The notes beneath the pieces are model-generated. The model had not been told where the DNA came from, searched no databases, and saw only the letters and a list, made by a program, of their open reading frames with translations. Below, piece after piece: positions 41,330-63,665 of a DNA stretch of 64,000 nucleotides; the first letter of the stretch is position 1; each line of letters starts with the position of its first letter. The DNA lies in contig JBAZJU010000002.1 of NCBI GenBank assembly GCA_041651155.1, forward strand, positions 89,852-153,851. The letters run 5' to 3'. Position numbers and translations under genes: made by a program. The stretch comes from Patescibacteria group bacterium (lineage in GTDB: Bacteria; Patescibacteriota; Patescibacteriia; CAIXNZ01).

Positions 41330-41710
41330 TTATTTCGCCTCCTTTGCAGGCGCATTGACTGCCTTTAACCAGCCGCCCAGCATTTGGCCGACAGAATTTA
41401 AAGCTTCTTGGATTTCACTATATTTTGCCTCGCTAAGATTTTTTAAATCCTTGGCCATATTGGCAAAAACTTTCAGCGTGTCTAGCTTTCTCAGAGCCTG
41501 GATTAAAGTGTGTTTCTTTTCCTCCTTGCCTTGCCTGGTGGCAATGACAATGAGTTCCAAAATTTCTAAGATTGTAATTTCAGAACTTTTTCTTAAAGTG
41601 TTTTCTTCATTTTTTGAGATTTCGCCAGCCTCTTTATAGAGGTCATAGGTTTTATCTAAAATGGGGAATTTCTCAGAAAAATTCTCCAAAATGTCTTTGT
41701 ATTTTTGCAT
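41330..41710 (-). CDS. Hypothetical helical protein (126 aa)
   Basis: ATG-initiated ORF, predicted all-alpha; no family recognised. Confidence 0.3.
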   Translation of the reverse strand: MQKYKDILENFSEKFPILDKTYDLYKEAGEISKNEENTLRKSSEITILEILELIVIATRQGKEEKKHTLIQALRKLDTLKVFANMAKDLKNLSEAKYSEIQEALNSVGQMLGGWLKAVNAPAKEAK

Positions 41711-41806
41711 AGGTTTTGTTTTTAATTTTTAGGATTTGGTTTGATTAATTAGTTCGACCTTTAATTATTTAATTATGAACTAAGAGATATGAAATATGAG
41801 ATGTTG

Positions 41807-42154
41807 CTAATAATACTTTTTTTGTAATGTTTTAACACTTTTGACTAGTATTTTGATTATTTCTTCGATTTCATCTAATAATTTAGATGCTCTTTCTTTC
41901 TTTATTAAATCAGCATCAATTGACATTAGTAGCCAACTTTTGGTCTCCTTAGCCTCCTTTCTTGAAATATTTAAGTAATAAGTAAATTCTTTTTTACTTA
42001 AAGAATTTTTTGCGTGAATTATGTTTGAATTTATAGACGTTCCAGATCGGATTAATTGTTTGCCTATAATAAAGGCGGCCGTAGTCTTTGGGAATTGATT
42101 CACTAATTTAATTGTGTTGATCGCAAAATTGTAGGTTCTTATTTCGGTATCCAT
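41807..42154 (-). CDS. Four-helix-bundle protein (PF05635/TIGR02436, Avd-like family), intact
   Basis: ...FIIGKQLIRSGTSINSNIIHAKNSLSKKEFTYYLNISRKEAKETKSWLLMS... matches the family core; flanked by imperfect inverted repeats. Confidence 0.6.
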   Translation of the reverse strand: MDTEIRTYNFAINTIKLVNQFPKTTAAFIIGKQLIRSGTSINSNIIHAKNSLSKKEFTYYLNISRKEAKETKSWLLMSIDADLIKKERASKLLDEIEEIIKILVKSVKTLQKKYY

Positions 42155-42204
42155 ATTGAATTAATTAATAATAAATCTCATATCTCATAGTTCATAATTC
42201 ATAG

Positions 42205-44847
42205 TTAAGTTTTTGGCTTTCGGAATTTATATATGACCGCAGCCAAACTTAGTGCCAAAAACACAGCAGATGCAATTAAGTATTTCAAAACCGAATTTCC
42301 TAATTTATTGGGTGGAATTTGCGTGGAGGCTTCAGGGGCAGGGATTATTTGTTTTTCAATATCTGCTTCAGACCGAGGTAGTATTCTGTATTCTTCATTA
42401 TTTTTACTCAAGATGCCGGTAATTTTCAAATTATCTCCTTCAGCAAAATTAGCTTTGTTGATTTTGGTATTAGTTTTAAAATAAATTTCCGCTTCCCCGC
42501 TTTCATCTTTGATCATAAATTTTGAGCCATTTTTATCTAAAAGCAGTCCGGTAATTTGTACTAAATAACCGACTAGATCATTGTTAATTTCTTGAGAGGT
42601 TATAATTTTTGGTTGTGGCGGATCTTGATTTGAAATAACTTTAATATCTTGGGCAGACGCCAGTTTAATTCGTTTTTCACCCAAGGCTTCACTCAAGGTG
42701 CCGTTTAAATCCACTAAATCCCCGATTTTCAGATCAGGCCAGTTAGCTTTTGACATATAAACCTGAATGCCAGAACCAGCTACATACATCATGGTTTTAC
42801 CAAAAATATTTGGCAGGACTGAAACAACGCCCTGGGTTTTGACTAATGTGCCAACAGCCAAATTTTTAATATCTTTTAAATCAACTGAGACGACTTTTTT
42901 TGCGCTTGATTTTTTAGCAGTACTTTTTACAGCAGTGCTTTTGGCTGTTTGGGCGCTAACTTCACTCCCGCTTGATTCTGTAGTTGCAGTAATTTTAATC
43001 TTTTGGGCTTCTTTAGTTTCCAGCTGTCCATCACTCACTATTAAAGTAATTGAATAGGTGCCTTTTTGTTTGAATTGGTGCTGGGCAATCACAGAAGCAT
43101 AAGATTGGTCTTCTATTTGCCAGGTAAAATTTAATTCATCATCTTCCAGATCAAATGAATCTGAAGCATCACAGGTGATTATTTCATTAATATTGGCTGT
43201 CTTAGGACAATCAAGATTAATTTCCGGCGCATGGTTTAACTTGGTCAAAACATTTTCTTTGCCCGGGGTTGGCGTAATTGTCCAAAACCAGTAGCCATTT
43301 TCATCTTGGATATAAGAAGTATTTTCTGGCACATTCTCATCCTCGCTATATTTTACTGTTTGAATGGTTTTATCATCAGGGGAAATTAATTTTAGAGTTT
43401 CTTTGTCATTGTTTAAAGCCAGGCCGCTGATTTTTCTTTCAATAGCTAAGAATTCATTGGGTTTGAGAATGGTTGTTGTAAAATCATTTATAGAAATTCT
43501 ATATTTTTTCTTACTTGCATCCTGAATTTGCCAACCCTTTAGGTCTGCTTCTTGGTCGCCTGTATTTTTTAATTCAATGAACTCAAATTCCAGGTCAGAA
43601 CCGGGCGGATTAGGAAAAAGTTCATTTATAACAATTTTATCTTTAATTTTTTGCTTGCTTTCTTTGTCTGTTGTTTCAGTCGCTGTTTTACTTTTTTCTT
43701 CCTCTGTTAAAGAAATTATATTTGCTTCACCTTTAGTCGGTGTTTGGGTAACTGCGAAGTCATTTTTATTATTGAAAGTTTCAGCACCGTCAAAAATCCT
43801 GGCTGTGGAATCTGGGTCTTTGGCGACAGGCGCGTTATTCTCGGGGAAGCCATTATCCCAGTTGCCGTAAAAGACAGCATCAATAATATTATTTTTATCA
43901 TCTTTTAAAATTATGGCATCGCCGCTATTATTTAATTTGCCCTTAGGATTCTCAATGACCAGAAATTTATTATCAAAATTTGAGCCGATTGTACCAGTCA
44001 GATTGGTTTGCGCGCCTGAGCCGTCAGTGATTGTATAGCCGGCCAAATCAATATCAAAAATATTTTTATTGTAAAGTTCTAGCCATTCCACTTCTCCATC
44101 AGCCGGATCTGAGACAAACTCATTAATTACTAAGGTTCCGGAGGAAACAATTTTTCTGTTGCTTGAGGTTGAAGCAAGGGGATTGTCTTCCGGTTGAGGA
44201 TCATCGGCCGGCGGTTGATCAGGCGGCGGGTCGTCTGTGGGAGGCTCATCTGCCGGAGGATCGTCATCGGGCGGCGGGTCATCAGCCGGCGGCGGGTCAA
44301 TCGGAGGCTGATTTGGAAATTCATTGGCCTTGCCAGCGGAATTGGCAGCGGCATGAACTTGCCAGTTAGCCGTTGTATAATCATTTAAATTTAAATCAAC
44401 TCTTTGCAAAGAAGTGTCAGGGCAAGGCAAATAAGTAAAAATTTCAATGGTTTCGCCGGCAGAATTTTTTAAGCCAATTTCTTCGCCATCTTCGCGCAAA
44501 CTGGACCAGGAGCTATCAATAATTGTGCCAGTAAAGTCAGAATATTTTTGTTTGAACAAATCAGCTTTGTTGGCGATGATGGCATATTCACCTGGATCAA
44601 TGATTAAATCGTTTTGGAATGCGCTTAAGCGGTGATTAGTCTGGTCTTCGTAAAATTTCCAGTTAGTTAAATCAACCGGTTCTGCGCCTTTATTATAAAT
44701 TTCCACCCATTCATTGTCGCTTGTTTCATATGCGCCGATTTCTGAGATGACAATATCAGAATCAGCAGCGTAAGCATAAATCGGGAAATTAAAAAATCCC
44801 AACAATAATAAAGTTAGGACCGCAAATCTTTGTTTTTTGTTTTTCAT
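42205..44847 (-). CDS. Cell-surface protein with three lamin-tail domains (LTD), PKD-like domain, Pro/Asp-rich linker, OB-like domain and C-terminal TM anchor
   Basis: LTD signatures IVISEIGAYETSDNEWVEIYNKGAEPVDLTNWKF, LVINEFVSDPADGEVEWLELYNKN...DLAGYTI and IVINELFPNPPGSDLEFEFIELKNTGDQEADLKGWQI; PPxDDPPP linker; C-terminal hydrophobic helix then KFRKPKT. Confidence 0.55.
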   Translation of the reverse strand: MKNKKQRFAVLTLLLLGFFNFPIYAYAADSDIVISEIGAYETSDNEWVEIYNKGAEPVDLTNWKFYEDQTNHRLSAFQNDLIIDPGEYAIIANKADLFKQKYSDFTGTIIDSSWSSLREDGEEIGLKNSAGETIEIFTYLPCPDTSLQRVDLNLNDYTTANWQVHAAANSAGKANEFPNQPPIDPPPADDPPPDDDPPADEPPTDDPPPDQPPADDPQPEDNPLASTSSNRKIVSSGTLVINEFVSDPADGEVEWLELYNKNIFDIDLAGYTITDGSGAQTNLTGTIGSNFDNKFLVIENPKGKLNNSGDAIILKDDKNNIIDAVFYGNWDNGFPENNAPVAKDPDSTARIFDGAETFNNKNDFAVTQTPTKGEANIISLTEEEKSKTATETTDKESKQKIKDKIVINELFPNPPGSDLEFEFIELKNTGDQEADLKGWQIQDASKKKYRISINDFTTTILKPNEFLAIERKISGLALNNDKETLKLISPDDKTIQTVKYSEDENVPENTSYIQDENGYWFWTITPTPGKENVLTKLNHAPEINLDCPKTANINEIITCDASDSFDLEDDELNFTWQIEDQSYASVIAQHQFKQKGTYSITLIVSDGQLETKEAQKIKITATTESSGSEVSAQTAKSTAVKSTAKKSSAKKVVSVDLKDIKNLAVGTLVKTQGVVSVLPNIFGKTMMYVAGSGIQVYMSKANWPDLKIGDLVDLNGTLSEALGEKRIKLASAQDIKVISNQDPPQPKIITSQEINNDLVGYLVQITGLLLDKNGSKFMIKDESGEAEIYFKTNTKINKANFAEGDNLKITGILSKNNEEYRILPRSEADIEKQIIPAPEASTQIPPNKLGNSVLKYLIASAVFLALSLAAVIYKFRKPKT

Positions 44848-46663: not shown

Positions 46664-48025
46664 TTAAAGTTCCACGATTTGTCCATATTTAGGCGCTTCA
46701 GCATTAATGCCTAATTTACCAGCAAGCAGGTTTTTTAAAACTTCAGCTGGCTCTTTTTCACCCTGAACCGTAAAGACTTTTTTAAGCGGACTTTTTATAT
46801 TTTGAATAAAATTTAAAATTCCTTTTTTGTCAGCATGGGCAGAATACCCGCCGATTGCCCGGCCTTCAGCCATATTTTTTATATCCACGCCCATTATGCG
46901 TACAAGAGGCAGGCCTTCTAGTATTTTTCTGCCCAAGGTGCCTTCAACCTGAAAACCAATAACTAGAAAGATATTGTTTGGATTGGGCAGATAATCTTTT
47001 TCATGGAACAAAATTCGACCGCCAGTTGACATGCCGCCGCCGGCAATAATTACTTTGGGCGCGTTTACTTTTATTATTCTTTTAGATTCTTGAGATGAAG
47101 CAGTGAATTTTAAACCAGGGAAATTAAAAATATCATCACCCGAAGCAATTATATAGCGAGTTTTTTGATTAAAATATGATTGGTGTTTTTTATAAACCTC
47201 AGTAATTTTTATGGCCAAAGGGCTGTCAATGAAAATCGGCACCTGAGGAATAATTTTATTTTCCACAAAAGCATTTAATTCGTATAAAAGTTCCTGGGTG
47301 CGTTCAAGCGCAAAAGAAGGAATCATTAAAACCGCTTTTCTTTTGATGGTATCTAAAAAAGTTTGCAAAAGCAGGGCTTTGCTTTCTTTTTTAGATTCAT
47401 GATTCCTGTCACCATATGCTGAATCAACGAGCAGGTAGTCAGTGTCAGTAATTTGGTAAGTGGGATTTAAAAGCGGAGTAGGCGGGTTGCCCAAATCACC
47501 GGTAAAAACAATTTTAACTTTTTTAGTGTCTTCAGTTAATTGCAGTTCAATCATGCTGGAGCCGAGAATGTGGCCGGCATCTCTTAGAGTAAATTCCAAG
47601 TTATCGTTTAATTTGTTCGGCTGGTCATATTCATGAATTTTAATTTGATTCAACATGTTTTGTAAATCTTGCTGGCCATATAATGGCTCAAGCCCATTGT
47701 TTTTAAATTCCTCTGACATTAAATGAACCGCATCTTCCAAGGCTACGGCCATGAGGTCTTTGGTGGGAGGAGTGCAAAAGATTTGCCCTTTAAAACCGTT
47801 TTTGACCAGCTGGCCCAGCCGGCCGCAATGGTCTAAATGCGAATGAGTGACAAAAACATAATCAATTGTTTTTGGATCATAAGGAAAGGGCTGGTGGTTT
47901 AATTCATTGACCTCAGACGGACCCTGAAACAAGCCACAGTCAACCAGGAGCCTGGTTTTGCCAACTTCTATTAAGTAATTTGAGCCTGTGACAACCCCGG
48001 CACCCCCGTAGAAATGTAATTTCAT
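46664..48025 (-). CDS. Beta-CASP MBL-fold ribonuclease (RNase J-like)
   Basis: HSHLDHCG (HxHxDH) metallo-beta-lactamase motif plus beta-CASP region; 453 aa, shorter than canonical RNase J, so exact family is uncertain. Confidence 0.6.
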   Translation of the reverse strand: MKLHFYGGAGVVTGSNYLIEVGKTRLLVDCGLFQGPSEVNELNHQPFPYDPKTIDYVFVTHSHLDHCGRLGQLVKNGFKGQIFCTPPTKDLMAVALEDAVHLMSEEFKNNGLEPLYGQQDLQNMLNQIKIHEYDQPNKLNDNLEFTLRDAGHILGSSMIELQLTEDTKKVKIVFTGDLGNPPTPLLNPTYQITDTDYLLVDSAYGDRNHESKKESKALLLQTFLDTIKRKAVLMIPSFALERTQELLYELNAFVENKIIPQVPIFIDSPLAIKITEVYKKHQSYFNQKTRYIIASGDDIFNFPGLKFTASSQESKRIIKVNAPKVIIAGGGMSTGGRILFHEKDYLPNPNNIFLVIGFQVEGTLGRKILEGLPLVRIMGVDIKNMAEGRAIGGYSAHADKKGILNFIQNIKSPLKKVFTVQGEKEPAEVLKNLLAGKLGINAEAPKYGQIVEL

Positions 48026-48029
48026 TGGT

Positions 48030-50900
48030 TAATTGGGTTATTAATAAATTCGTCTTCGCCAACCGAAATTTAGTTTCGGCCAACGAAGGTTGGTTTATTT
48101 ATTTATTTGGTTGTAAATTTGAGTTAATTATAGCATAATTGATTTTTCTCTCATAAGAAAAGTGGCGACAGTGCCGCCACTTTAATTTGTACCCTTTTTG
48201 TGTTGCCTTGAGGTTTTGCCCATTTAGGACACTTGACAGCCGCTCTCTATATAGGCTCCTCCTTTCTCCAAATGTGCTCTTTGGTCTTAGCAGGGTTTAG
48301 GTCTACCTGCATGGAATCTTGAGATCACTTACTAGCACTATGTGTTTTCTGCATGGAATATAGGGCTTTTCCAAGCGCGCGCTTAGAAGCACTGCTTTCC
48401 CCACTCTTTTTATTATGGATATTTTGGACCGGGGAACCAATCGTATACCTTTAAATAGTTTAGTACTGTTTCTTGGCATTATCTGTCTCCTTTTTGTGAG
48501 ATTACAAAGCCTTATTCTTTAAATTTAATATAACAAAAAGAATATAATTAAACAATATATTTCGGGAAATTAAAAAGCCGGGATGGCTTTTAATTAAGTA
48601 ATAACATTTGTTGAATTTGCCAATCCCGGCGCTGGAGTTTTGTTTTAGGCTGTTACTGCTTTTTTAGGCAGTGTAATCCTAGCCTTTGGATCAGCCCGCT
48701 GCGCTTTCCTTCTCCCCTTGTGAGGCCTGAGTTTTCATTCCGAAAACAATCATAATTTTTACCTTTCATTGCGGGTTGAAAATAGAGCCTGGCGTAACTT
48801 TGACTTAGTAAGAAGGTAATTCGGGACAATAATAAGTGTCCCTGAGGATAGCCAGTGGCCGGAGAAGGCCGTTATAACCGGTTTTCCTCTTTTTTGAATG
48901 CGGTTTGCCTTTTTTCCTGCCGAACTTCTCTTGGTCCTGCCCTTGCTCTTACTTCTGACATGATTGTCCTCCTCGGTTTTGGGGCACTTTGTGCCTTGAC
49001 AATATTATGGGCTACTGCAGCAACCTTTGATTTAATTGTAGCAAAAAATACAGTTTGAGCAAATTAAAATTTGTGGATAAATTTGGCAAATTAAAAAGCC
49101 GGGATGGGCTTTTAATTAAGTATAAACATTTGTTGAATTTGCCAATCCCGGCTCGTGTGACAGGCTTTTGCCTTGTGGCGATGGCTTAGTCTGCCGCTAT
49201 GCTCTTGGGTCTTGCAGCGCACTTTGTGTGCAACGACTGCTTAGTTGTCCTCAACGTTACAATCATATAATGGACTCCTTTTTGATCCGTATTGAAATGT
49301 TTACGGATAAGTCCGCATTTAAATCGCGGGGGATTTTGCCGCTTTTTATATCGCCCTCAAGAGTTTCCTCTAGGGGCTTTATATTACACAGCGTAGTTCC
49401 ACCATGTCCTCCCTTTTCCGGTTCGCCGTTTACAGTGCCGTTTTCTTCGTGGCCACTCGGGCCGGTAAGCTTTTGCTGACTTCCAATTTCGGACCTGCTC
49501 TTGCCATAAGGCACCTCCTGGATTGTTTTTGGACATTGTCTGCCCGGTTCAATAGTCTTTGGTCGTGATGACCTCGTGACGTGAGCTAGCCTCGAAGACG
49601 GCTTAGCCTGCCACTACACTCGTGGTTTCTTTGCAGCGTACTATGTCCTTTCCCGGGGCGTTGTACGCGAAAATCTTAGAAGTGTTCGTTTTTAACGTTA
49701 CAATCATAAGATGATCTCCTGTTTGTTCGTGGTATTGTGAAACGATCTCGGGCACAACATGGCCTTTTTGGCGCTCATGCCCGCAGTTCGGTGGCAGGCA
49801 ATACTGCCATTGAGTGGAATCCCGTTGTCTGTAAATTGGTGACAATCATATCTGGGTCTCCTTTTAGATCCCGATGATTTATTGTCAGAACAAAAGAATG
49901 TCTCCGCATTTGTTACGCCCATGAAGTCCCTACCCCATGGGCCTTAGACATTGAAATTATTTTCCACAATTTGCTCCTTCCTTTGCCTGGTTCGCCGTTT
50001 ACGCTTTTTTGTCCTGCTTGCTTGCGGCCGATTTCTGCGTCGTGGCCTGCGACATTTTTCCAGCGACTACTTTCGGACCTGCTCTTGCCATAAGTCACCT
50101 CCTGGATTGTTTTGGGCAGGGTTTGTCCGTGTCAATGTTTTTGGCCGAAATGACCTCTGTCTTTAATTTACCAAAGAAAAAAAGATCAGGCAAGAAATTT
50201 GTGGATAAATTTGGCAAATTAAAAAGCCGGGATGGGCTTTTAATTAAGTATAAACATTTGTTGAATTTGCCAATCCCGGCTCGTGTGACAGGCTTTTGCC
50301 CTGAAGATGTGTTAGCCTATCGCTATGTTCGCGGTTTCTTTGTCAGCGTGCACGCCGTTTTCCAAGGCGCCGTACGCGGAAAACAGATCGCTTTTGTTGA
50401 ACGTTACAATCATAAGGGCCTCCTTTTTTGACCCAGATTGAGATGTTCGTGGATAAGCCCGCCTTTAAATCGCGGGGATTTTGCCGCTTTTTATATCGCC
50501 CTCAAGAGTTTCCTCTAGGGGCTTTATATTACACAGCGCAGTTCCACTATGTCCTCCCTTTTCTGGTTCGCCGTTTACAGTGCCGTTTTCTTCGTGGCCG
50601 CTCGGGCCGGTAAGCTTTTGCTGACTTCCAATTTCGGACCTGCTCTTGCTCTCTTTTTCGACATACTTACCTCCTCTGTTCGGGTTTACGGGCAACTTTC
50701 GTGCCAGGGAATATATTATGGTCACCCGCGGCAACCTCTGCTTTAAATTTAACAAAGAAAAATATTATTGGCAAGGAATTTGTGGATAAATGTTTTCAGA
50801 TTGCGGATTACGATTACAGATTTCAGATTAAATCCAGATTTTTAAGAGAACTAAAAAGAGACAGTCAAGCTGTCCCTTTTTATAATCATTAGGTTGTTTA
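48030..50900 (-). repeat. Protein-poor repeat block: imperfect tandem units with long terminator-like hairpins and RBS-preceded micro-ORFs (minus strand)
   Basis: Terminator-like hairpins aaaaagccgggatgg..caatcccggc followed by T-run (on minus strand) at 48572-48630, 49094-49152 and 50221-50280. Unit repeats: tttgtggataaatttggcaaatt at 49069 and 50198 (1127-bp period); blocks 49411-49530, 49975-50110 and 50550-50660 are homologous. Each unit carries AGGAGGTG then (GTG/ATG) small ORFs. Confidence 0.6.
50855..50880 (-). terminator. Intrinsic terminator downstream of rpsA
   Basis: Minus strand GGGACAG cuuga CUGUCUC UUUUU. Confidence 0.55.
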
Positions 50901-50902
50901 AT

Positions 50903-52168
50903 CTATTTTTTTGCTTTAACTTTTTTTTCTTTAACAGCTTTGGCTTTCTTTTCCTTAGTTTCTGGCTTTGCCTCTTTTTTTTCTGCCTTATCTTCTTTTT
51001 CTTTTGCTTTTGGTTCTTTAACTTCGGGAGTTTCAGTCTCGGCTGTTTGCTTTTTGACCTCTTTGAGAGCTTTAAGGCTTAAGCCTAAGCGGTGATCTTT
51101 TGGTTCAATAGAAATTATTCTGAATTTTATAGTATCTCCTGCTTTGGCAATTTCATTTAAATCAGTAATAGGTTTATCAGAAAGTTCAGAAATATGAGCC
51201 AAACCGTGAATGTCTGGATCTAATTCTACAAATAAGCCAAACGGGTTAGCCTTTAAAACTTTGCCCTCAACCAAATCATTGACTTTATACTTATCATAAA
51301 CATGAACCCAGGGATCTTCTTTTAGTTTTTTCATTGACAGAAATATCTTTGTGCCTTCAATATTAATTATTTCCGCTTCTACGACATCTCCAACCTTGAT
51401 AAAGTCGCGCGGGTCATCAATTCTTTGCCAGGCAAGTTCAGAAATATGAACCAGGCCTTCCATTTTGTTGTCAAATTCCACAAAGACGCCAAAATCTGTG
51501 ACTGCAGTGACCTTCCCTTTGATTCTATCGCCAACTTTATATTTGGAAACAACCTTTTCTTGTGATTCTTCCCAGGCTGCTTTTTCAGATACAATCAGCT
51601 TTTCCTCTTTTTCATCAACATCAAGCACTTTAACCTGCAAAGGCTGATTAATAAATTTTCTTAAGAATTCTAAAATTTTATTTTTGTCTCCGCCTTCAAC
51701 GCGTGGATAATGTTCGGGTATTAATTGGGAAACAGGCAAAAAGCCGGCAATATGGCCGATTTTAGTCATCAGGCCGCCTTTGTTTGCATCACTAATTTTA
51801 ACCGTCAGAACTTCGCCTGATTTCATCAGATCTTTTAAACTGTCCCAGGCTCTTTGCTGGCCGGCATAACGAAAAGAAAGTTCCATTTCGCCATTTTCAT
51901 TTTCCATGTCTATGACAGTTGCTTCAACGCTATCTCCGATTTTAAGATGGCCGAATTCCTCTGATTCATTATAAAGTTCGCGTCCGCGCACAATACCGGT
52001 TTTAATGCCGTCAATATCAAGGCGCACCTCGGCTTTGGAAGCAGAGATTACCTTGCCTTTAATGACTTCGCTGATTTTTGGTAATTTTAAATATGGTGAA
52101 TCGCCACTCAGTAATTTGGCGAATTCGGAATTTGTGTTTTCTGGTTTTTTAGGATCTTTTTTTGACAT
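50903..52168 (-). CDS. rpsA: 30S ribosomal protein S1 (four S1 domains) with Lys-rich C-terminal tail
   Basis: Repeated S1 OB-fold motifs (GxV.G.V..I...GhFV.l); 421 aa; C-terminal KEKEDKAEKKEAKPETKEKKAK tail. Confidence 0.8.
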   Translation of the reverse strand: MSKKDPKKPENTNSEFAKLLSGDSPYLKLPKISEVIKGKVISASKAEVRLDIDGIKTGIVRGRELYNESEEFGHLKIGDSVEATVIDMENENGEMELSFRYAGQQRAWDSLKDLMKSGEVLTVKISDANKGGLMTKIGHIAGFLPVSQLIPEHYPRVEGGDKNKILEFLRKFINQPLQVKVLDVDEKEEKLIVSEKAAWEESQEKVVSKYKVGDRIKGKVTAVTDFGVFVEFDNKMEGLVHISELAWQRIDDPRDFIKVGDVVEAEIINIEGTKIFLSMKKLKEDPWVHVYDKYKVNDLVEGKVLKANPFGLFVELDPDIHGLAHISELSDKPITDLNEIAKAGDTIKFRIISIEPKDHRLGLSLKALKEVKKQTAETETPEVKEPKAKEKEDKAEKKEAKPETKEKKAKAVKEKKVKAKK

Positions 52169-63547: not shown

Positions 63548-63665
63548 GGCCTTCGGCCCAGGGATTCGAACCCTGGACCCACTGCTTAAGAGGCAGTTGC
63601 TCTACCAGCCCCAAAGGGGAGCCTTTGGCTCTGAGCTATTTACCTCAAAATTAATTTTTAATATT
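63548..63665 (-). tRNA. tRNA-Lys(CTT)-like element carrying two copies of a 24-nt palindromic insert (probable pseudo-tRNA)
   Basis: GCTCAGAG..GGTAGAGC D-arm, ACTGC CTCTTAA GCAGT anticodon arm, GGGTCCAGGGTTCGAATCCCTGG T-arm and CCGGGTCAC 3' acceptor. AGCCAAAGGCTCCCCTTTGGGGCT sits in the D-loop and GGCCGAAGGCCCCCCTTTGGGGCC between T-stem and acceptor; no complementary 5' acceptor strand found. Confidence 0.35.

What the first reader, a model, noticed from the sequence alone, without database searches (positions are those of the whole stretch)
48030..50900. 2.8-kb gene-desert between rnj and rpsA built from imperfect tandem units with giant terminator-like hairpins and conserved micro-ORFs
No ORF over 150 aa exists here on either strand. 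The block contains at least three related units on the minus strand. Each unit ends in a long hairpin (agccgggat(t/g)ggc...gcccatcccggct, roughly 13-bp stem, roughly 30-nt loop) followed by UUUUU, seen at 48572-48630, 49094-49152 and 50221-50280. Upstream of each lies AGGAGGTG followed by small ORFs. In the unit pair 49411-49530 vs 50550-50660, the long frame reads GTG/ATG...YGKSRSEIGSQQKLTGPSGHEENGTVNGEPEKGGH, 83-96 aa. Of the four nucleotide differences in the shared segment, two are synonymous and two conservative (G/S, T/A) in that frame. The same differences are non-synonymous in the overlapping MARAGPK... frame. This hints at purifying selection on a Gly/Ser-rich small protein. A second ATG micro-ORF (MIVTL..., 26-34 aa) follows each one with conserved 5' and 3' ends but divergent middle. 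A further unit (48300-48480) encodes a 57-aa basic ORF (MPRNSTKLFKGIRLV...) after AAAGGAGACAGATA and ends in the hairpin agtggcg-acagtgc-cgccact plus T-run (about 48157-48185). Whether this is a family of tiny secreted or regulatory proteins, a ncRNA array or decaying paralogs is unclear.
Basis: partly seen in the sequence, partly recalled or inferred. Interest (0 to 1): 0.75.

Follow-up and report, generated by a model that had tools for sequence, protein, structure and literature searches.

The report
DnaA-box-driven micro-ORF transcript array
The "gene desert" between the ribosomal protein S1 gene and a beta-CASP ribonuclease gene of an uncultured Patescibacteria (CPR) bacterium is a tandemly amplified set of short transcription units, each apparently switched by a perfect DnaA-binding site, that carry two or three tiny translated reading frames, one of them with a SecM-like Arg-x-Gly-Pro motif; this is a clade-specific element with no described counterpart and unknown function.

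Summary
Window 48158-50830 (minus strand) contains four promoter-to-terminator units (A, B, C, D), where B is a double unit. They include 109-nt and 176-nt blocks repeated at 98-99% identity and three 12-13-bp hairpins followed by T5.

In 14 copies from 10 related genomes the selected frame is the "MARAGPK" one, here called P1, with motif [R/K]-x-[G/S]-P. Arg is AGA/AGG/CGT, Gly is GGT/GGA/GGC and Pro is CCG/CCA/CCC. The Gly/Ser-rich 83-96-aa frame has no start context and carries 1-6 stops in relatives.

Two further micro-ORFs are also conserved at codon level: a 7-codon ORF (MELRFN[ILV]-UAA) that abuts a covarying hairpin, and the MIV... ORF.

A new finding is that every unit promoter is preceded, 6-9 nt upstream of the -35 hexamer, by a DnaA box. 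Of 24 perfect TTATCCACA sites in 1.02 Mb of related DNA, 13 lie in these 16.6 kb of gaps, all in the same orientation.

The locus is syntenic (rpsA - units - beta-CASP RNase) with 1-4 units per genome. Rfam, tRNA/tmRNA, Pfam, NCBIfam and viral-contig searches found nothing.

Best reading: DnaA-gated polycistronic micro-ORF RNAs whose short conserved peptides act in cis on the ribosome, or are tiny effector peptides. Function is unproven.

The parts
50852..50882 (-). rpsA terminator-like hairpin, upstream boundary of the array
   Evidence: 13-bp stem followed by a T-rich tail
50781..50789 (-). Perfect DnaA box TTATCCACA of unit A, 6 nt upstream of the -35 hexamer
50746..50774 (-). Unit A promoter-like site: TTGCCA, 17-nt spacer, TAAATT, with a TG extension
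50691..50737 (-). Unit A 5'UTR with two hairpins (GGUUGCC..GGUGACC and GGCAC..GUUGCC), followed by an unpaired CA-rich stretch and the SD sequence
   Evidence: the same two-hairpin layout appears with different sequences in winC, L057, L065, L069, L061, L064 and L003
50575..50664 (-). P1-A micro-ORF MSKKRARAGPKLEVSKSLPARAATKKTAL (29 aa), SD GAGGAGG
50524..50547 (-). Pm-A, a 7-codon ORF (GTG) ELRCVI-UAA, SD GGGAGGA
50497..50523 (-). Hairpin immediately after the Pm stop codon
   Evidence: it is the only consensus helix of the inter-ORF region, and its sequence differs between genomes while the pairing is kept
50312..50413 (-). P2-A micro-ORF MIVTFNKSDLFSAYGALENGVHADKETANIAIG (33 aa)
50221..50281 (-). 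Unit A terminator: giant hairpin (agccgggattggc..gcccatcccggct) followed by T5
   Evidence: -20.2 kcal/mol
50200..50208 (-). Perfect DnaA box of unit B
50165..50193 (-). Unit B promoter-like site: TTGCCT, 17-nt spacer, TAAATT
49999..50091 (-). P1-B1 MARAGPKVVAGKMSQATTQKSAASKQDKKA (30 aa), SD AGGAGGTG
49944..49967 (-). Pm-B1 (GTG) ENNFNV-UAA, followed by the hairpin at 49914-49943
49775..49849 (-). P2-B1a MIVTNLQTTGFHSMAVLPATELRA (24 aa)
49603..49707 (-). P2-B1b MIVTLKTNTSKIFAYNAPGKDIVRCKETTSVVAG (34 aa)
49430..49507 (-). P1-B2 MARAGPKLEVSKSLPARVATKKTAL (25 aa). This is the second module of unit B; there is no terminator or promoter between the two modules.
49379..49402 (-). Pm-B2 (GTG, or ATG at 49405) ELRCVI-UAA, followed by the hairpin at 49352-49378
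49186..49266 (-). P2-B2 MIVTLRTTKQSLHTKCAARPKSIAAD (26 aa)
49093..49153 (-). Unit B terminator: giant hairpin followed by T5, identical to that of unit A
49072..49080 (-). Perfect DnaA box of unit C
49035..49063 (-). Unit C promoter-like site: TTTGCT, 17-nt spacer, (TGc)TACAAT
48872..48961 (-). P1-C MSEVRARAGPREVRQEKRQTAFKKEENRL (29 aa). Its motif codons differ from those of units A and B only synonymously (AGG, GGA, CCA).
48691..48753 (-). P2-C MIVFGMKTQASQGEKESAAG (20 aa) with a weak SD. Unit C has no Pm.
48572..48631 (-). Unit C terminator: giant hairpin followed by T5
   Evidence: -19.4 kcal/mol
48527..48555 (-). Unit D promoter-like site: TTGTTT, 17-nt spacer, (TGt)TATATT. There is no DnaA box.
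   Evidence: read directly from the sequence. One search lists an alternative site at 48507-48478.
48303..48479 (-). 58-aa basic ORF of unit D (MPRNSTKLFKG...). It has an SD sequence but no comparative support.
48158..48213 (-). Conserved 3' module of unit D (CCUCAAGGCA..AAAGGGUAC) plus its terminator AGUGGCGGCACUGUCGCCACUUUU. It abuts the -35 region of the RNase promoter.
   Evidence: conserved in L003, L057 and L061, and partly in L064
48127..48154 (-). Own promoter of the beta-CASP RNase gene (ATGAGA, 16-nt spacer, TGcTATAAT), downstream boundary of the array
   Evidence: TGCTATAAT is kept at this place in most relatives.

Best explanation
**What it is (shown).** The region is an array of four independently transcribed short RNAs on the minus strand of a Patescibacteria genome. 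It sits in a syntenic slot between rpsA and an aCPSF-like beta-CASP RNase gene.

The canonical unit has this layout:
1. A single DnaA box (TTATCCACA) 6-9 nt upstream of a sigma-70-type promoter.
2. A 5'UTR of about 75 nt with two stabilising hairpins and an unpaired CA-rich leader.
3. P1, behind a strong SD sequence: a 25-47-codon ORF whose only conserved part is an N-terminal R-x-(R-x)-[G/S/D]-P motif.
4. Pm, behind a second strong SD: a 7-codon ORF (MELRFN[I/L/V]) whose UAA stop touches a GC-rich hairpin.
5. P2, behind a third SD: an ORF that always starts M-I-V, with a 10-34-aa variable tail.
6. A sequence-conserved 12-13-bp hairpin followed by a U run.

Units A, B (double) and C arose by tandem duplication in this genome. 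Relatives carry one or two such units plus one or two further promoter-terminator units of other content, up to four in all. Unit D is a different small transcript whose 3' end is conserved.

**How it most likely works (inferred).** DnaA bound at about -47 gates transcription, so the RNAs report replication-initiator status. The micro-ORFs are translated. What selection preserves is only a handful of residues at or near the peptidyl-transferase centre and the upper exit tunnel. The tails are free to vary, to shift frame and to shrink to 8 codons. I therefore think the peptides act mainly in cis. They would be pause or arrest-type nascent peptides (the RAG/P core is the same as the SecM arrest module) that set ribosome occupancy on the transcript. 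Through that they would set either expression of the downstream micro-ORFs or read-through towards the RNase gene. I do not think they act as folded proteins.
For: **Transcription units**
- Promoter-like sites and terminators bracket every unit.
- A contig from a different sequencing run is identical over unit A's promoter and the start of P1.

**Translation of P1**
- Fourteen copies with an SD sequence plus ATG occur only in this gap.
- Motif codons: R is AGA/AGG/CGT; G/S is GGT/GGA/GGC/AGT; P is CCG/CCA/CCC.
- The short version, MERIRDPT.. (L003) versus MRIRGDPTDI (L005), keeps R-I-R-D-P-T through five synonymous codon changes: CGA/AGG, ATC/ATA, AGA/AGG, CCT/CCG and ACT/ACG.

**Translation of Pm and P2**
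- Pm is 7 codons plus UAA in 8 of 9 copies. Leu is CTG/CTA/CTC and Arg is CGC/AGA/CGA.
- In P2, Val at codon 3 uses GTA, GTC, GTT and GTG.

**Tails are unconstrained**
- P1 is 25-47 aa with unrelated tails.
- It is replaced by ORFs of 1, 4 or 8-11 codons in L006, L004, L036, L003, L005, L061 and L064.

**DnaA box**
- Of 24 perfect 9-mers in 1.02 Mb, 13 lie in the 16.6 kb of gaps. All are co-oriented and 6-9 nt from the -35 hexamer.
- This includes distant lineages (L036, L045, L070) whose flanking sequence is otherwise unrelated.

**Synteny and copy-number variation:**

**Literature**
- RAG/P is the arrest module of SecM (PMC10951299).
- RAGP is depleted from proteomes, and *B. subtilis* YwcI (RAGP) arrests translation (PMC12992588, PMC10987492).
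- DnaA activates the small-protein gene sda, and one DnaA-box cluster lies at ywcI-vpr (PMC3245932).
Against: - There is no expression, ribosome-profiling or DnaA-binding data. Every functional step is inferred.
- The R-x-G-P motif sits 2-6 residues after the start codon. Known RAPP/RAGP arrest needs an upstream nascent-chain 'regulator' region, and most RAPP-like motifs in ordinary proteins do not stall (PMC10987492).
- Relatives carry RASP, RDGP, REGP or KHGP, which are untested as arrest cores.
- I found no conserved alternative (antiterminator) structure. MFE folds differ between units, and only the post-Pm hairpin is a consensus helix.
- The P2 stop codon lies 27-64 nt from the terminator.
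- The RNase gene has its own conserved promoter, so no regulated target has been identified.
- Each promoter has only one DnaA box with no auxiliary boxes. Another protein could recognise the 9-mer.
- Some first ORFs lack proline (MGKT in L004, ATG-TAA in L006).
Confidence: 0.5

Rival explanations
1. The micro-ORFs encode genuine trans-acting small peptides or proteins: P1 is a basic disordered peptide, Pm a heptapeptide and P2 an MIV peptide. They would be produced under DnaA control as effectors, in the way *B. subtilis* DnaA activates the small checkpoint protein Sda. The array would simply raise gene dosage.
For: - The codon-level selection and strong SD sequences are the same evidence as for the best explanation.
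- P1 ORFs stay open for 25-47 codons in 14 copies.
- Some P2 orthologues are similar along their whole length: L065 MIVRILSTAKAKKEEKNTAKEEAQA versus L003 MNVRVLQAKFVAKEEKHATKEVAQA.
- There is a precedent for DnaA-activated small-protein genes (PMC3245932).
Against: - P1 tails share no sequence, and P1 is replaced by ORFs of 1-11 codons in sister lineages.
- P2 length varies from 10 to 34 aa.
- There is no Pfam or NCBIfam family, no signal peptide and no hydrophobic segment.
- A 7-aa or 8-aa peptide is unlikely to be a folded effector.
Confidence: 0.28
2. The long overlapping frame (..YGKSRSEIGSQQKLTGPSGHEENGTVNGEPEKGGH.., 83-96 aa) encodes a Gly/Ser-rich small protein under purifying selection.
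For: - The four A-versus-B2 differences are two synonymous and two conservative changes in that frame.
- The frame is stop-poor in this window (99 and 116 codons) and somewhat stop-poor overall: 19 stops versus 30 and 33 in the other frames, p about 0.03, with non-independent copies.
- Gene callers picked it.
Against: - It has no SD or start context. The 96-aa ORF begins at a TTG inside the promoter. The 83-aa ORF begins at the GTG of the AGGAGGTG SD sequence.
- It carries 1-6 stops between P1 and P2 in L057, L061, L064, L065, L069 and L070 unit 2.
- Its amino-acid sequence is not conserved.
- The synonymous third-position changes of the P1 frame become amino-acid changes in this frame.
- Its openness is explained by the T-poor, purine-rich RNA composition.
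Confidence: 0.03
3. The units are non-coding regulatory RNAs. The array would be sRNAs or a sponge whose repeated exposed GGAGG elements titrate ribosomes, S1 or an RNA-binding protein. The ORFs would be incidental.
For: - The region has higher GC than its flanks (0.43-0.51 versus about 0.36).
- Hairpins are conserved, and the terminator stem is invariant in sequence across lineages without covariation.
- Unit D has a conserved SD-like AAGGAGGAGG with no conserved ORF.
- Tandem sRNA arrays with their own promoters and terminators exist in other bacteria (own knowledge: LhrC1-5).
Against: - Codon-position patterns in three separate ORFs.
- There is no Rfam hit even at E<=10 beyond terminator-like noise.
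- RNAalifold finds only one local helix in the 180-nt core.
- ATG is conserved at a fixed distance from every SD sequence.
Confidence: 0.1
4. The locus is primarily a DNA element: a DnaA-titration or DnaA-reactivation site analogous to datA/DARS or the *B. subtilis* DnaA-box clusters. Its transcription and ORFs would be secondary.
For: - Perfect boxes are more than 30-fold enriched here.
- There are three boxes in this window and three in L070.
- DnaA-box clusters outside oriC modulate initiation in *B. subtilis* (PMC3245932).
Against: - There is only one box per promoter, spaced 370-1130 bp apart, with no auxiliary boxes within 100 nt upstream or 60 nt downstream (2.3 per kb versus 3.7 per kb background). 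Known clusters pack many boxes in a few hundred bp.
- The fixed spacing to the -35 hexamer points to promoter control.
- Several relatives have a single box.
- There is no GC-skew switch, so the locus is not oriC.
Confidence: 0.06
5. The region is junk: fragments of a disrupted larger gene, a mobile or phage remnant, or an assembly artefact of repeats.
For: - Copy number varies between genomes.
- The repeats are near-identical in a k-mer assembly.
- A Logan contig breaks at the repeat.
Against: - The same architecture lies in the same slot in 10+ genomes from different samples and assemblers.
- No peptide matches any protein family.
- Two motif scans of the viral contigs gave only chance hits.
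- An nhmmer profile of the core finds no copy elsewhere in 2.2 Mb of held DNA.
- The repeats are shorter than, or diverged within, the assembly k-mer.
Confidence: 0.03

Closest known systems
RAG/P and RAPP-type ribosome arrest peptides (SecM, ApdA/ApdP, B. subtilis YwcI)
   Same: All four window copies of P1 carry the exact R-A-G-P tetrapeptide that forms the SecM arrest module. Arg and Pro are the invariant residues, as in SecM. The motif is maintained by purifying selection while the rest of the ORF drifts. YwcI, like these units, lies next to DnaA boxes in *B. subtilis* (PMC10951299, PMC12992588, PMC10987492, PMC3245932).
   Different: - The motif sits at residues 3-10 of a 25-47-aa ORF, not near the C-terminus.
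- There is no upstream regulator segment, no signal or TM sequence, and no Sec/YidC gene downstream.
- Relatives use RASP, RDGP, REGP or KHGP.
- Arrest has not been tested.
- Sequence homology to any known arrest peptide is absent.
Leader-peptide control regions with several short ORFs (Salmonella mgtCBR leader with mgtM/mgtP; erm and cat leader peptides)
   Same: Short, strongly initiated ORFs are interleaved with hairpins and end in an intrinsic terminator upstream of a gene. Proline codons recur in the first ORFs. A 7-codon ORF abuts a hairpin, as in drug-sensing leaders (PMC3641672; own knowledge for erm and cat).
   Different: - No conserved terminator/antiterminator alternative was found.
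- The downstream RNase gene has its own promoter.
- The units are repeated in tandem, each with its own promoter, which leaders are not.
DnaA-regulated promoters and DnaA-box clusters of B. subtilis (sda, ywlC, yydA, ywcI-vpr)
   Same: A consensus TTATCCACA lies next to a promoter that drives a very small gene product. The locus is outside oriC (PMC3245932).
   Different: There is a single box per promoter at a fixed distance from the -35 hexamer, rather than a multi-box cluster. The organism is a CPR bacterium in which no DnaA regulon has been described. DnaA binding has not been shown.
Tandem arrays of sRNA genes with individual promoters and terminators (for example Listeria LhrC1-5) and phage lambda bar minigenes (own knowledge)
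   Same: The locus has head-to-tail paralogous short transcription units. It also has strongly SD-driven ORFs of a few codons (ATG-TAA in L006; MGKT and MSWP in L004 and L036).
   Different: Here the ORFs show amino-acid-level selection. There is no evidence for base-pairing targets or for peptidyl-tRNA drop-off toxicity.

Membership tests
RAPP/RAGP-type translation arrest peptides | Core R-A-[P/G]-P with an essential Arg and an essential final Pro | tested here: inconclusive
   All four window copies are RAGP. The other 10 copies are RASP (4), RDGP (4), REGP (1) and KHGP (1). Pro is invariant, and Arg is replaced by Lys once.
RAPP/RAGP-type translation arrest peptides | Motif near the C-terminus, preceded by a nascent-chain segment that fills the tunnel | tested here: not met
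   The motif starts at residue 3-7 of 25-47-aa ORFs, with 18-37 codons following it.
RAPP/RAGP-type translation arrest peptides | N-terminal signal or TM segment, and a downstream gene (sec, yidC or other) whose SD sequence is unmasked by the stalled ribosome | tested here: not met
   The peptides are hydrophilic and basic. What lies downstream is another micro-ORF. No conserved SD-sequestering helix was found.
RAPP/RAGP-type translation arrest peptides | Ribosome stalling demonstrated (toeprint, peptidyl-tRNA accumulation) | not testable with these tools
   Needs in-vitro translation.
Leader-peptide transcription attenuators | Mutually exclusive terminator and antiterminator helices, one overlapped by the leader ORF | tested here: not met
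   MFE folds of 8 units share only local hairpins. The alifold consensus has one helix. The P2 stop codon lies 27-64 nt from the terminator (read from the sequences).
Leader-peptide transcription attenuators | The regulated structural gene depends on read-through | tested here: inconclusive
   The beta-CASP RNase gene follows every array but has its own conserved TGCTATAAT -10 element.
DnaA-controlled promoters | Consensus 9-mer TTATCCACA (TTWTNCACA) positioned at the promoter | tested here: met
   There are 13 perfect and 4 TTTTCCACA boxes, co-oriented and 6-9 nt upstream of the -35 hexamer. Of 24 perfect sites in 1.02 Mb, 13 lie in the 16.6 kb of gaps.
DnaA-controlled promoters | DnaA binding and a DnaA-dependent change in transcription | not testable with these tools
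   No dnaA gene or binding data in the held sequence.
DnaA-box clusters / datA / DARS | Several boxes packed within a few hundred bp | tested here: not met
   There is one box per promoter, and no excess of boxes with two or fewer mismatches nearby.
Known RNA families (Rfam 15), tRNA, tmRNA | Covariance-model score at or above the gathering threshold, or an ARAGORN call | tested here: not met
   There are no gathering-level hits in the region. Hits at E<=10 are only weak terminator-like sRNA matches. ARAGORN finds nothing.
Known protein families (Pfam-A, NCBIfam) | Profile match of any peptide | tested here: not met
   Ten peptides gave 0 families at E<=1 in both libraries.
Intrinsic (Rho-independent) terminators | GC-rich stem immediately followed by a U run | tested here: met
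   A 12-13-bp stem followed by T4-5 at the three unit ends, and a 9-bp stem followed by T4 for unit D. The loop is atypically large (14-32 nt), and the stem sequence is conserved across genomes.
   The best NCBIfam models are the Cas14 beta-CASP model (404 bits, cutoff 800) and aCPSF1 (290 bits, cutoff 580). No RNase J model is listed.

The most novel reading that the evidence does not exclude
The units are DnaA-gated 'ribosome-engaging' RNAs. When DnaA switches them on, abundant transcripts with near-perfect SD sequences load ribosomes onto micro-ORFs whose N-terminal R-x-G-P (SecM-type RAG/P) and MELRFN-stop peptides pause them. This would couple replication-initiator status to translational capacity, or to expression of the adjacent aCPSF-like RNase, in ultra-small CPR cells that have very few transcription factors. 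It would mean that a RAG/P arrest core can work a few residues from the N-terminus. The invariant terminal hairpin could in addition be a recognition site for the neighbouring beta-CASP nuclease.
Probability: 0.12. Interest if true: 0.8.

Novelty: new variant of a known kind. Interest (0 to 1): 0.55.

Why it matters
- Patescibacteria have tiny genomes, almost no characterised regulation and no genetics for most lineages. This locus provides a conserved promoter element that matches the DnaA box at a fixed position, which offers a first handle on a possible DnaA regulon in the group.
- It also defines a set of micro-ORFs with clear amino-acid-level selection that automatic annotation either misses or mis-calls. 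Gene callers chose the wrong overlapping frame.
- If the R-x-G-P and heptapeptide ORFs prove to be cis-acting, they would extend the RAG/P arrest principle to N-terminal mini-ORFs and to a new phylum-level group.
- If they are effectors, they form a rapidly evolving, dosage-amplified peptide family tied to the replication initiator.
- Either outcome can be tested with simple in-vitro assays.

Tried and rejected
- **Rfam**, gathering and E<=10 modes: nothing beyond weak terminator-like matches.
- **ARAGORN**: nothing.
- **TRF**: only trivial short repeats, because the units exceed its maximum period.
- **Pfam and NCBIfam** on 10 peptides: nothing.
- **Viral-contig scans** with the hairpin pattern and the P1 DNA pattern: 129 loci, all chance matches. 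None has the second hairpin arm or an SD-ATG-RARA ORF.
- **JGI metagenome scan** with the RNase protein: only one useful close relative (L057).
- **Look-up of the window's own RNase**: returned only the same ENA contig, so the full array has not been confirmed in a second assembly.
- **oriC idea:** rejected. There is no GC-skew switch in 64 kb, no dnaA signature in the held loci, and the boxes are single and far apart.
- **Attenuator idea:** no conserved alternative pairing.
- **5'UTR-P1 pairing** (CGGAC/GUCCG in unit B): not conserved in the other units (sequence inspection).
- **Integron attC or REP-like element:** the hairpin arms do not contain GTTRRRY, and the hairpin occurs nowhere else in the window. 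No integrase search was made.
- **Homology of the 58-aa ORF to the extra ORF of L057:** BLASTP finds no alignment, and only the last 55 nt or so of unit D align.
- **Protein-database search with P1:** not run. An 8-residue motif cannot reach significance against 5.8 billion sequences.

Full report
**Observation.** I read 47700-51300 on the minus strand. The region has no ORF longer than 140 aa. The repeat search finds a 109-nt block in three copies (49067-49175 and 50195-50303 at 99% identity; 48545-48653 at 70%). It also finds a 176-nt block at 98% (49329-49504 and 50474-50649) and a set of shorter families.

The three giant hairpins fold as a 12-13-bp stem with one bulge and a 31-32-nt loop. 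They lie at 50281-50221, 49153-49093 and 48631-48572 (-19 to -20 kcal/mol), and each is followed by T5. A fourth, ordinary terminator lies at 48181-48158.

GC content is 0.43-0.51 against about 0.36 in the flanks. A contig from an unrelated sequencing run (Logan, SRR8542065) is 100% identical to 52670-50620 and stops 29 nt inside the duplicated block. So the start of the array is not an artefact of one assembly. The whole array could not be confirmed a second time.

**Anatomy.** On the minus strand the region resolves into four promoter-to-terminator units.
- Unit A runs from about 50740 to 50221.
- Unit B runs from about 50160 to 49093. It is a double unit with no internal terminator.
- Unit C runs from about 49030 to 48572.
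- Unit D runs from about 48520 to 48158.

A canonical module contains, in order:
1. The 9-mer TTATCCACA.
2. After 6 nt, a -35/-10 pair (TTGCCA, 17-nt spacer, TAAATT).
3. A 5'UTR with two hairpins and an unpaired CA-rich stretch.
4. AGGAGG plus ATG and P1 (25-30 aa here).
5. GGGAGGA plus a 7-codon ORF (Pm) whose UAA stop touches a GC-rich hairpin.
6. AAGGAG plus ATG and P2 (MIV..., 20-34 aa).
7. The giant hairpin, 27-64 nt after the P2 stop.

Unit C lacks Pm. Unit D has different content: a 58-aa ORF and a 3' module.

**Relatives.** The window is ENA contig ERZ27247363 k141_2778245. The S1 protein finds Patescibacteria genomes, with the closest at 75-79% identity (Parcubacteria and Falkowbacteria bins). 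Only the close relatives have a 0.4-1.4-kb gap between rpsA and the beta-CASP gene. More distant genomes place a gene of about 605 aa directly after rpsA.

Through the RNase protein I obtained further syntenic loci at 66-86% identity. Every one of them carries one to four units of the same design in the same slot. A profile of the 180-nt Pm-to-P2 core finds nine copies in seven genomes and nothing else in 2.2 Mb of held DNA.

**Which frame is read.** A scan for an SD sequence plus ATG, an ORF of 55 aa or less, and an N-terminal [RKH]-x-[GS]-P motif gives 14 convincing copies, all in these gaps. In the motif:
- Arg is AGA, AGG or CGT, with Lys AAA once.
- Gly/Ser is GGT, GGA, GGC or AGT.
- Pro is CCG, CCA or CCC.
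- The upstream Ala and Arg codons vary GCA/GCG and AGA/AGG.

A shorter relative of the same motif opens the units of L003, L061 and L064 (MERIRDPT...) and of L005 (MRIRGDPTDI). Between L003 and L005, five of the six shared codons differ and all five changes are synonymous (sequences).

Pm is 7 codons plus UAA in 8 of 9 copies. Leu is CTG/CTA/CTC, Arg is CGC/AGA/CGA, and the pattern is M-x-[L/N]-x-[F/C]-x-[I/L/V]. In P2, codon 3 uses all four Val codons.

- It starts at a TTG inside the promoter, or at the GTG inside the SD sequence.
- Its sequence is not conserved.
- It contains 1-6 stops between P1 and P2 in six of the seven units from other genomes; within this window it has 0-1.

Its relative openness (19 stops versus 30 and 33, p about 0.03) fits the T-poor composition of the RNA.

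**What is not conserved.**
- P1 tails are unrelated in sequence and range from 18 to 37 codons.
- In sister lineages the first ORF shrinks to 8-11 codons, to 4 codons (MGKT; MSWP, MTWT and MTWP in L036) or to ATG-TAA (L006).
- P2 tails range from 10 to 34 aa.
- The 58-aa ORF of unit D has no counterpart in the nearest relative. Only the last 55 nt or so of unit D are conserved, and they abut the RNase promoter.

**DnaA box.** The only three perfect TTATCCACA sites in the 64-kb window are the three unit promoters. Across 1.02 Mb of held Patescibacteria DNA, 13 of 24 perfect sites fall in the 16.6 kb of gaps. All have the orientation of the unit and lie 6-9 nt upstream of the -35 hexamer.

L003, L061, L064 and L006 have TTTTCCACA at the same place. 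L036, L045 and L070 have perfect boxes although their flanking sequence is unrelated. There are no auxiliary boxes, no GC-skew switch and no dnaA gene nearby. The arrangement therefore looks like single-site promoter control, not an origin or a titration cluster.

**RNA structure.**
- RNAalifold on the nine cores finds only the hairpin after Pm.
- MFE folds of whole 3' halves are not shared between units.
- The two 5'UTR hairpins recur with different sequences.
- The terminator stem GCCGGGAU.GGC/GCCAUCCCGGC is kept letter for letter in L003, L057, L061, L064 and L065, and nearly so in L069. Its loop varies from 14 to 32 nt. Ordinary terminators do not show this, and I cannot explain it.

**Negative searches.** Rfam, ARAGORN, Pfam and NCBIfam on ten peptides and viral contigs all gave nothing.

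**Mechanism.**

*Shown:*
- The units are bounded by promoter-like and terminator sequences.
- Three micro-ORFs are under amino-acid-level selection that is confined to a few residues.
- A DnaA-box consensus is fixed at the promoters.
- The locus is syntenic, with unit number varying between genomes and duplication in this genome.

*Inferred:* DnaA gates transcription. Selection sees only short N-terminal or whole mini-peptides while the tails drift, shift frame or vanish. On that basis the peptides would act on the translating ribosome, by pausing it or setting its occupancy, rather than as folded products.

The R-A-G-P of the window copies is the SecM arrest module (PMC10951299). RAGP is counter-selected in proteomes, and the RAGP protein YwcI of *B. 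subtilis* arrests translation (PMC12992588, PMC10987492). ywcI also happens to flank one of the six DnaA-box clusters, and DnaA activates the small gene sda (PMC3245932).

Several points count against this reading:
- Known arrest needs a nascent chain upstream of the motif, and most RAPP-like motifs do not stall (PMC10987492).
- I found no regulated target or alternative fold.
- The main rival, genuine small effector peptides under DnaA control, explains the same data except for the free tails and the very short versions.

**Comparison and novelty.** The locus fails the membership tests for arrest peptides (position, context), attenuators (no alternative helices), DnaA-box clusters (single boxes) and every curated RNA or protein family. 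It resembles each of them in one respect. I found no description of such units in the searched literature. I rate it a new variant of known kinds (leader or arrest-like micro-ORF RNAs; DnaA-regulated small genes), confined to one Patescibacteria clade. Interest is moderate, because the function is open but easy to test.

Noticed in passing
Its best models are the type VII CRISPR Cas14 beta-CASP model (404 bits, cutoff 800, model positions 1-432 of 612) and archaeal aCPSF1 (290 bits, cutoff 580). It is therefore an aCPSF/CPSF73-like beta-CASP ribonuclease in a bacterium.
   Followed up: partly
window 41330-44847 (minus): An 880-aa LTD/PKD/DUF5689 protein is followed by two Avd-like four-helix proteins (23S_rRNA_IVP and bAvd). 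This resembles the target-plus-accessory part of a diversity-generating retroelement. The next ORFs are a ZIP transporter and a weak metallopeptidase hit, and no reverse transcriptase was seen. The same large gene neighbours the locus in relatives.
   Followed up: partly
window 50797-50830: Five copies of a 7-nt unit (AATCTGA-like on the minus strand) lie between the rpsA terminator and the first DnaA box. They are absent upstream of the other units and from relatives.
   Followed up: no
L036 11260-11740; L006 2590-2950; L004 11400-11840: In more distant relatives the DnaA-box promoter downstream of rpsA drives transcripts with extreme mini-ORFs.
- L036 has three 4-codon ORFs, MSWP, MTWT and MTWP. 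The last two each follow a hairpin plus the same ATGGAGGTGCGA(A/C)ATGACCTGG.
- L004 has MGKT.
- L006 has a start-stop ATG-TAA.
   Followed up: partly
window 48572-48631, 49093-49153, 50221-50281, and L003, L057, L061, L064, L065, L069: The terminator stem sequence (GCCGGGAU.GGC / GCCAUCCCGGC) is conserved without covariation across genomes whose flanking RNase is only 70-86% identical. The loop length, by contrast, varies from 14 to 32 nt. A related CCGG(G)AU element sits just upstream of the P2 SD sequence. Neither is explained.
   Followed up: partly
window 44000-44450: There is a local GC peak (0.51 against about 0.36 background) inside the 5' part of the 880-aa gene.
   Followed up: no
window 63559-63610 (minus): A partial tRNA match just above the Rfam threshold (31.4 bits, model positions 9-63) near the window end.
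   Followed up: no
L065 4194-4520, L061 4029-4214, L001 12655-12906: Public gene calls in these loci annotate the long overlapping (wrong) frame as 61-108-aa hypothetical proteins. The real micro-ORFs are mostly uncalled.
   Followed up: yes
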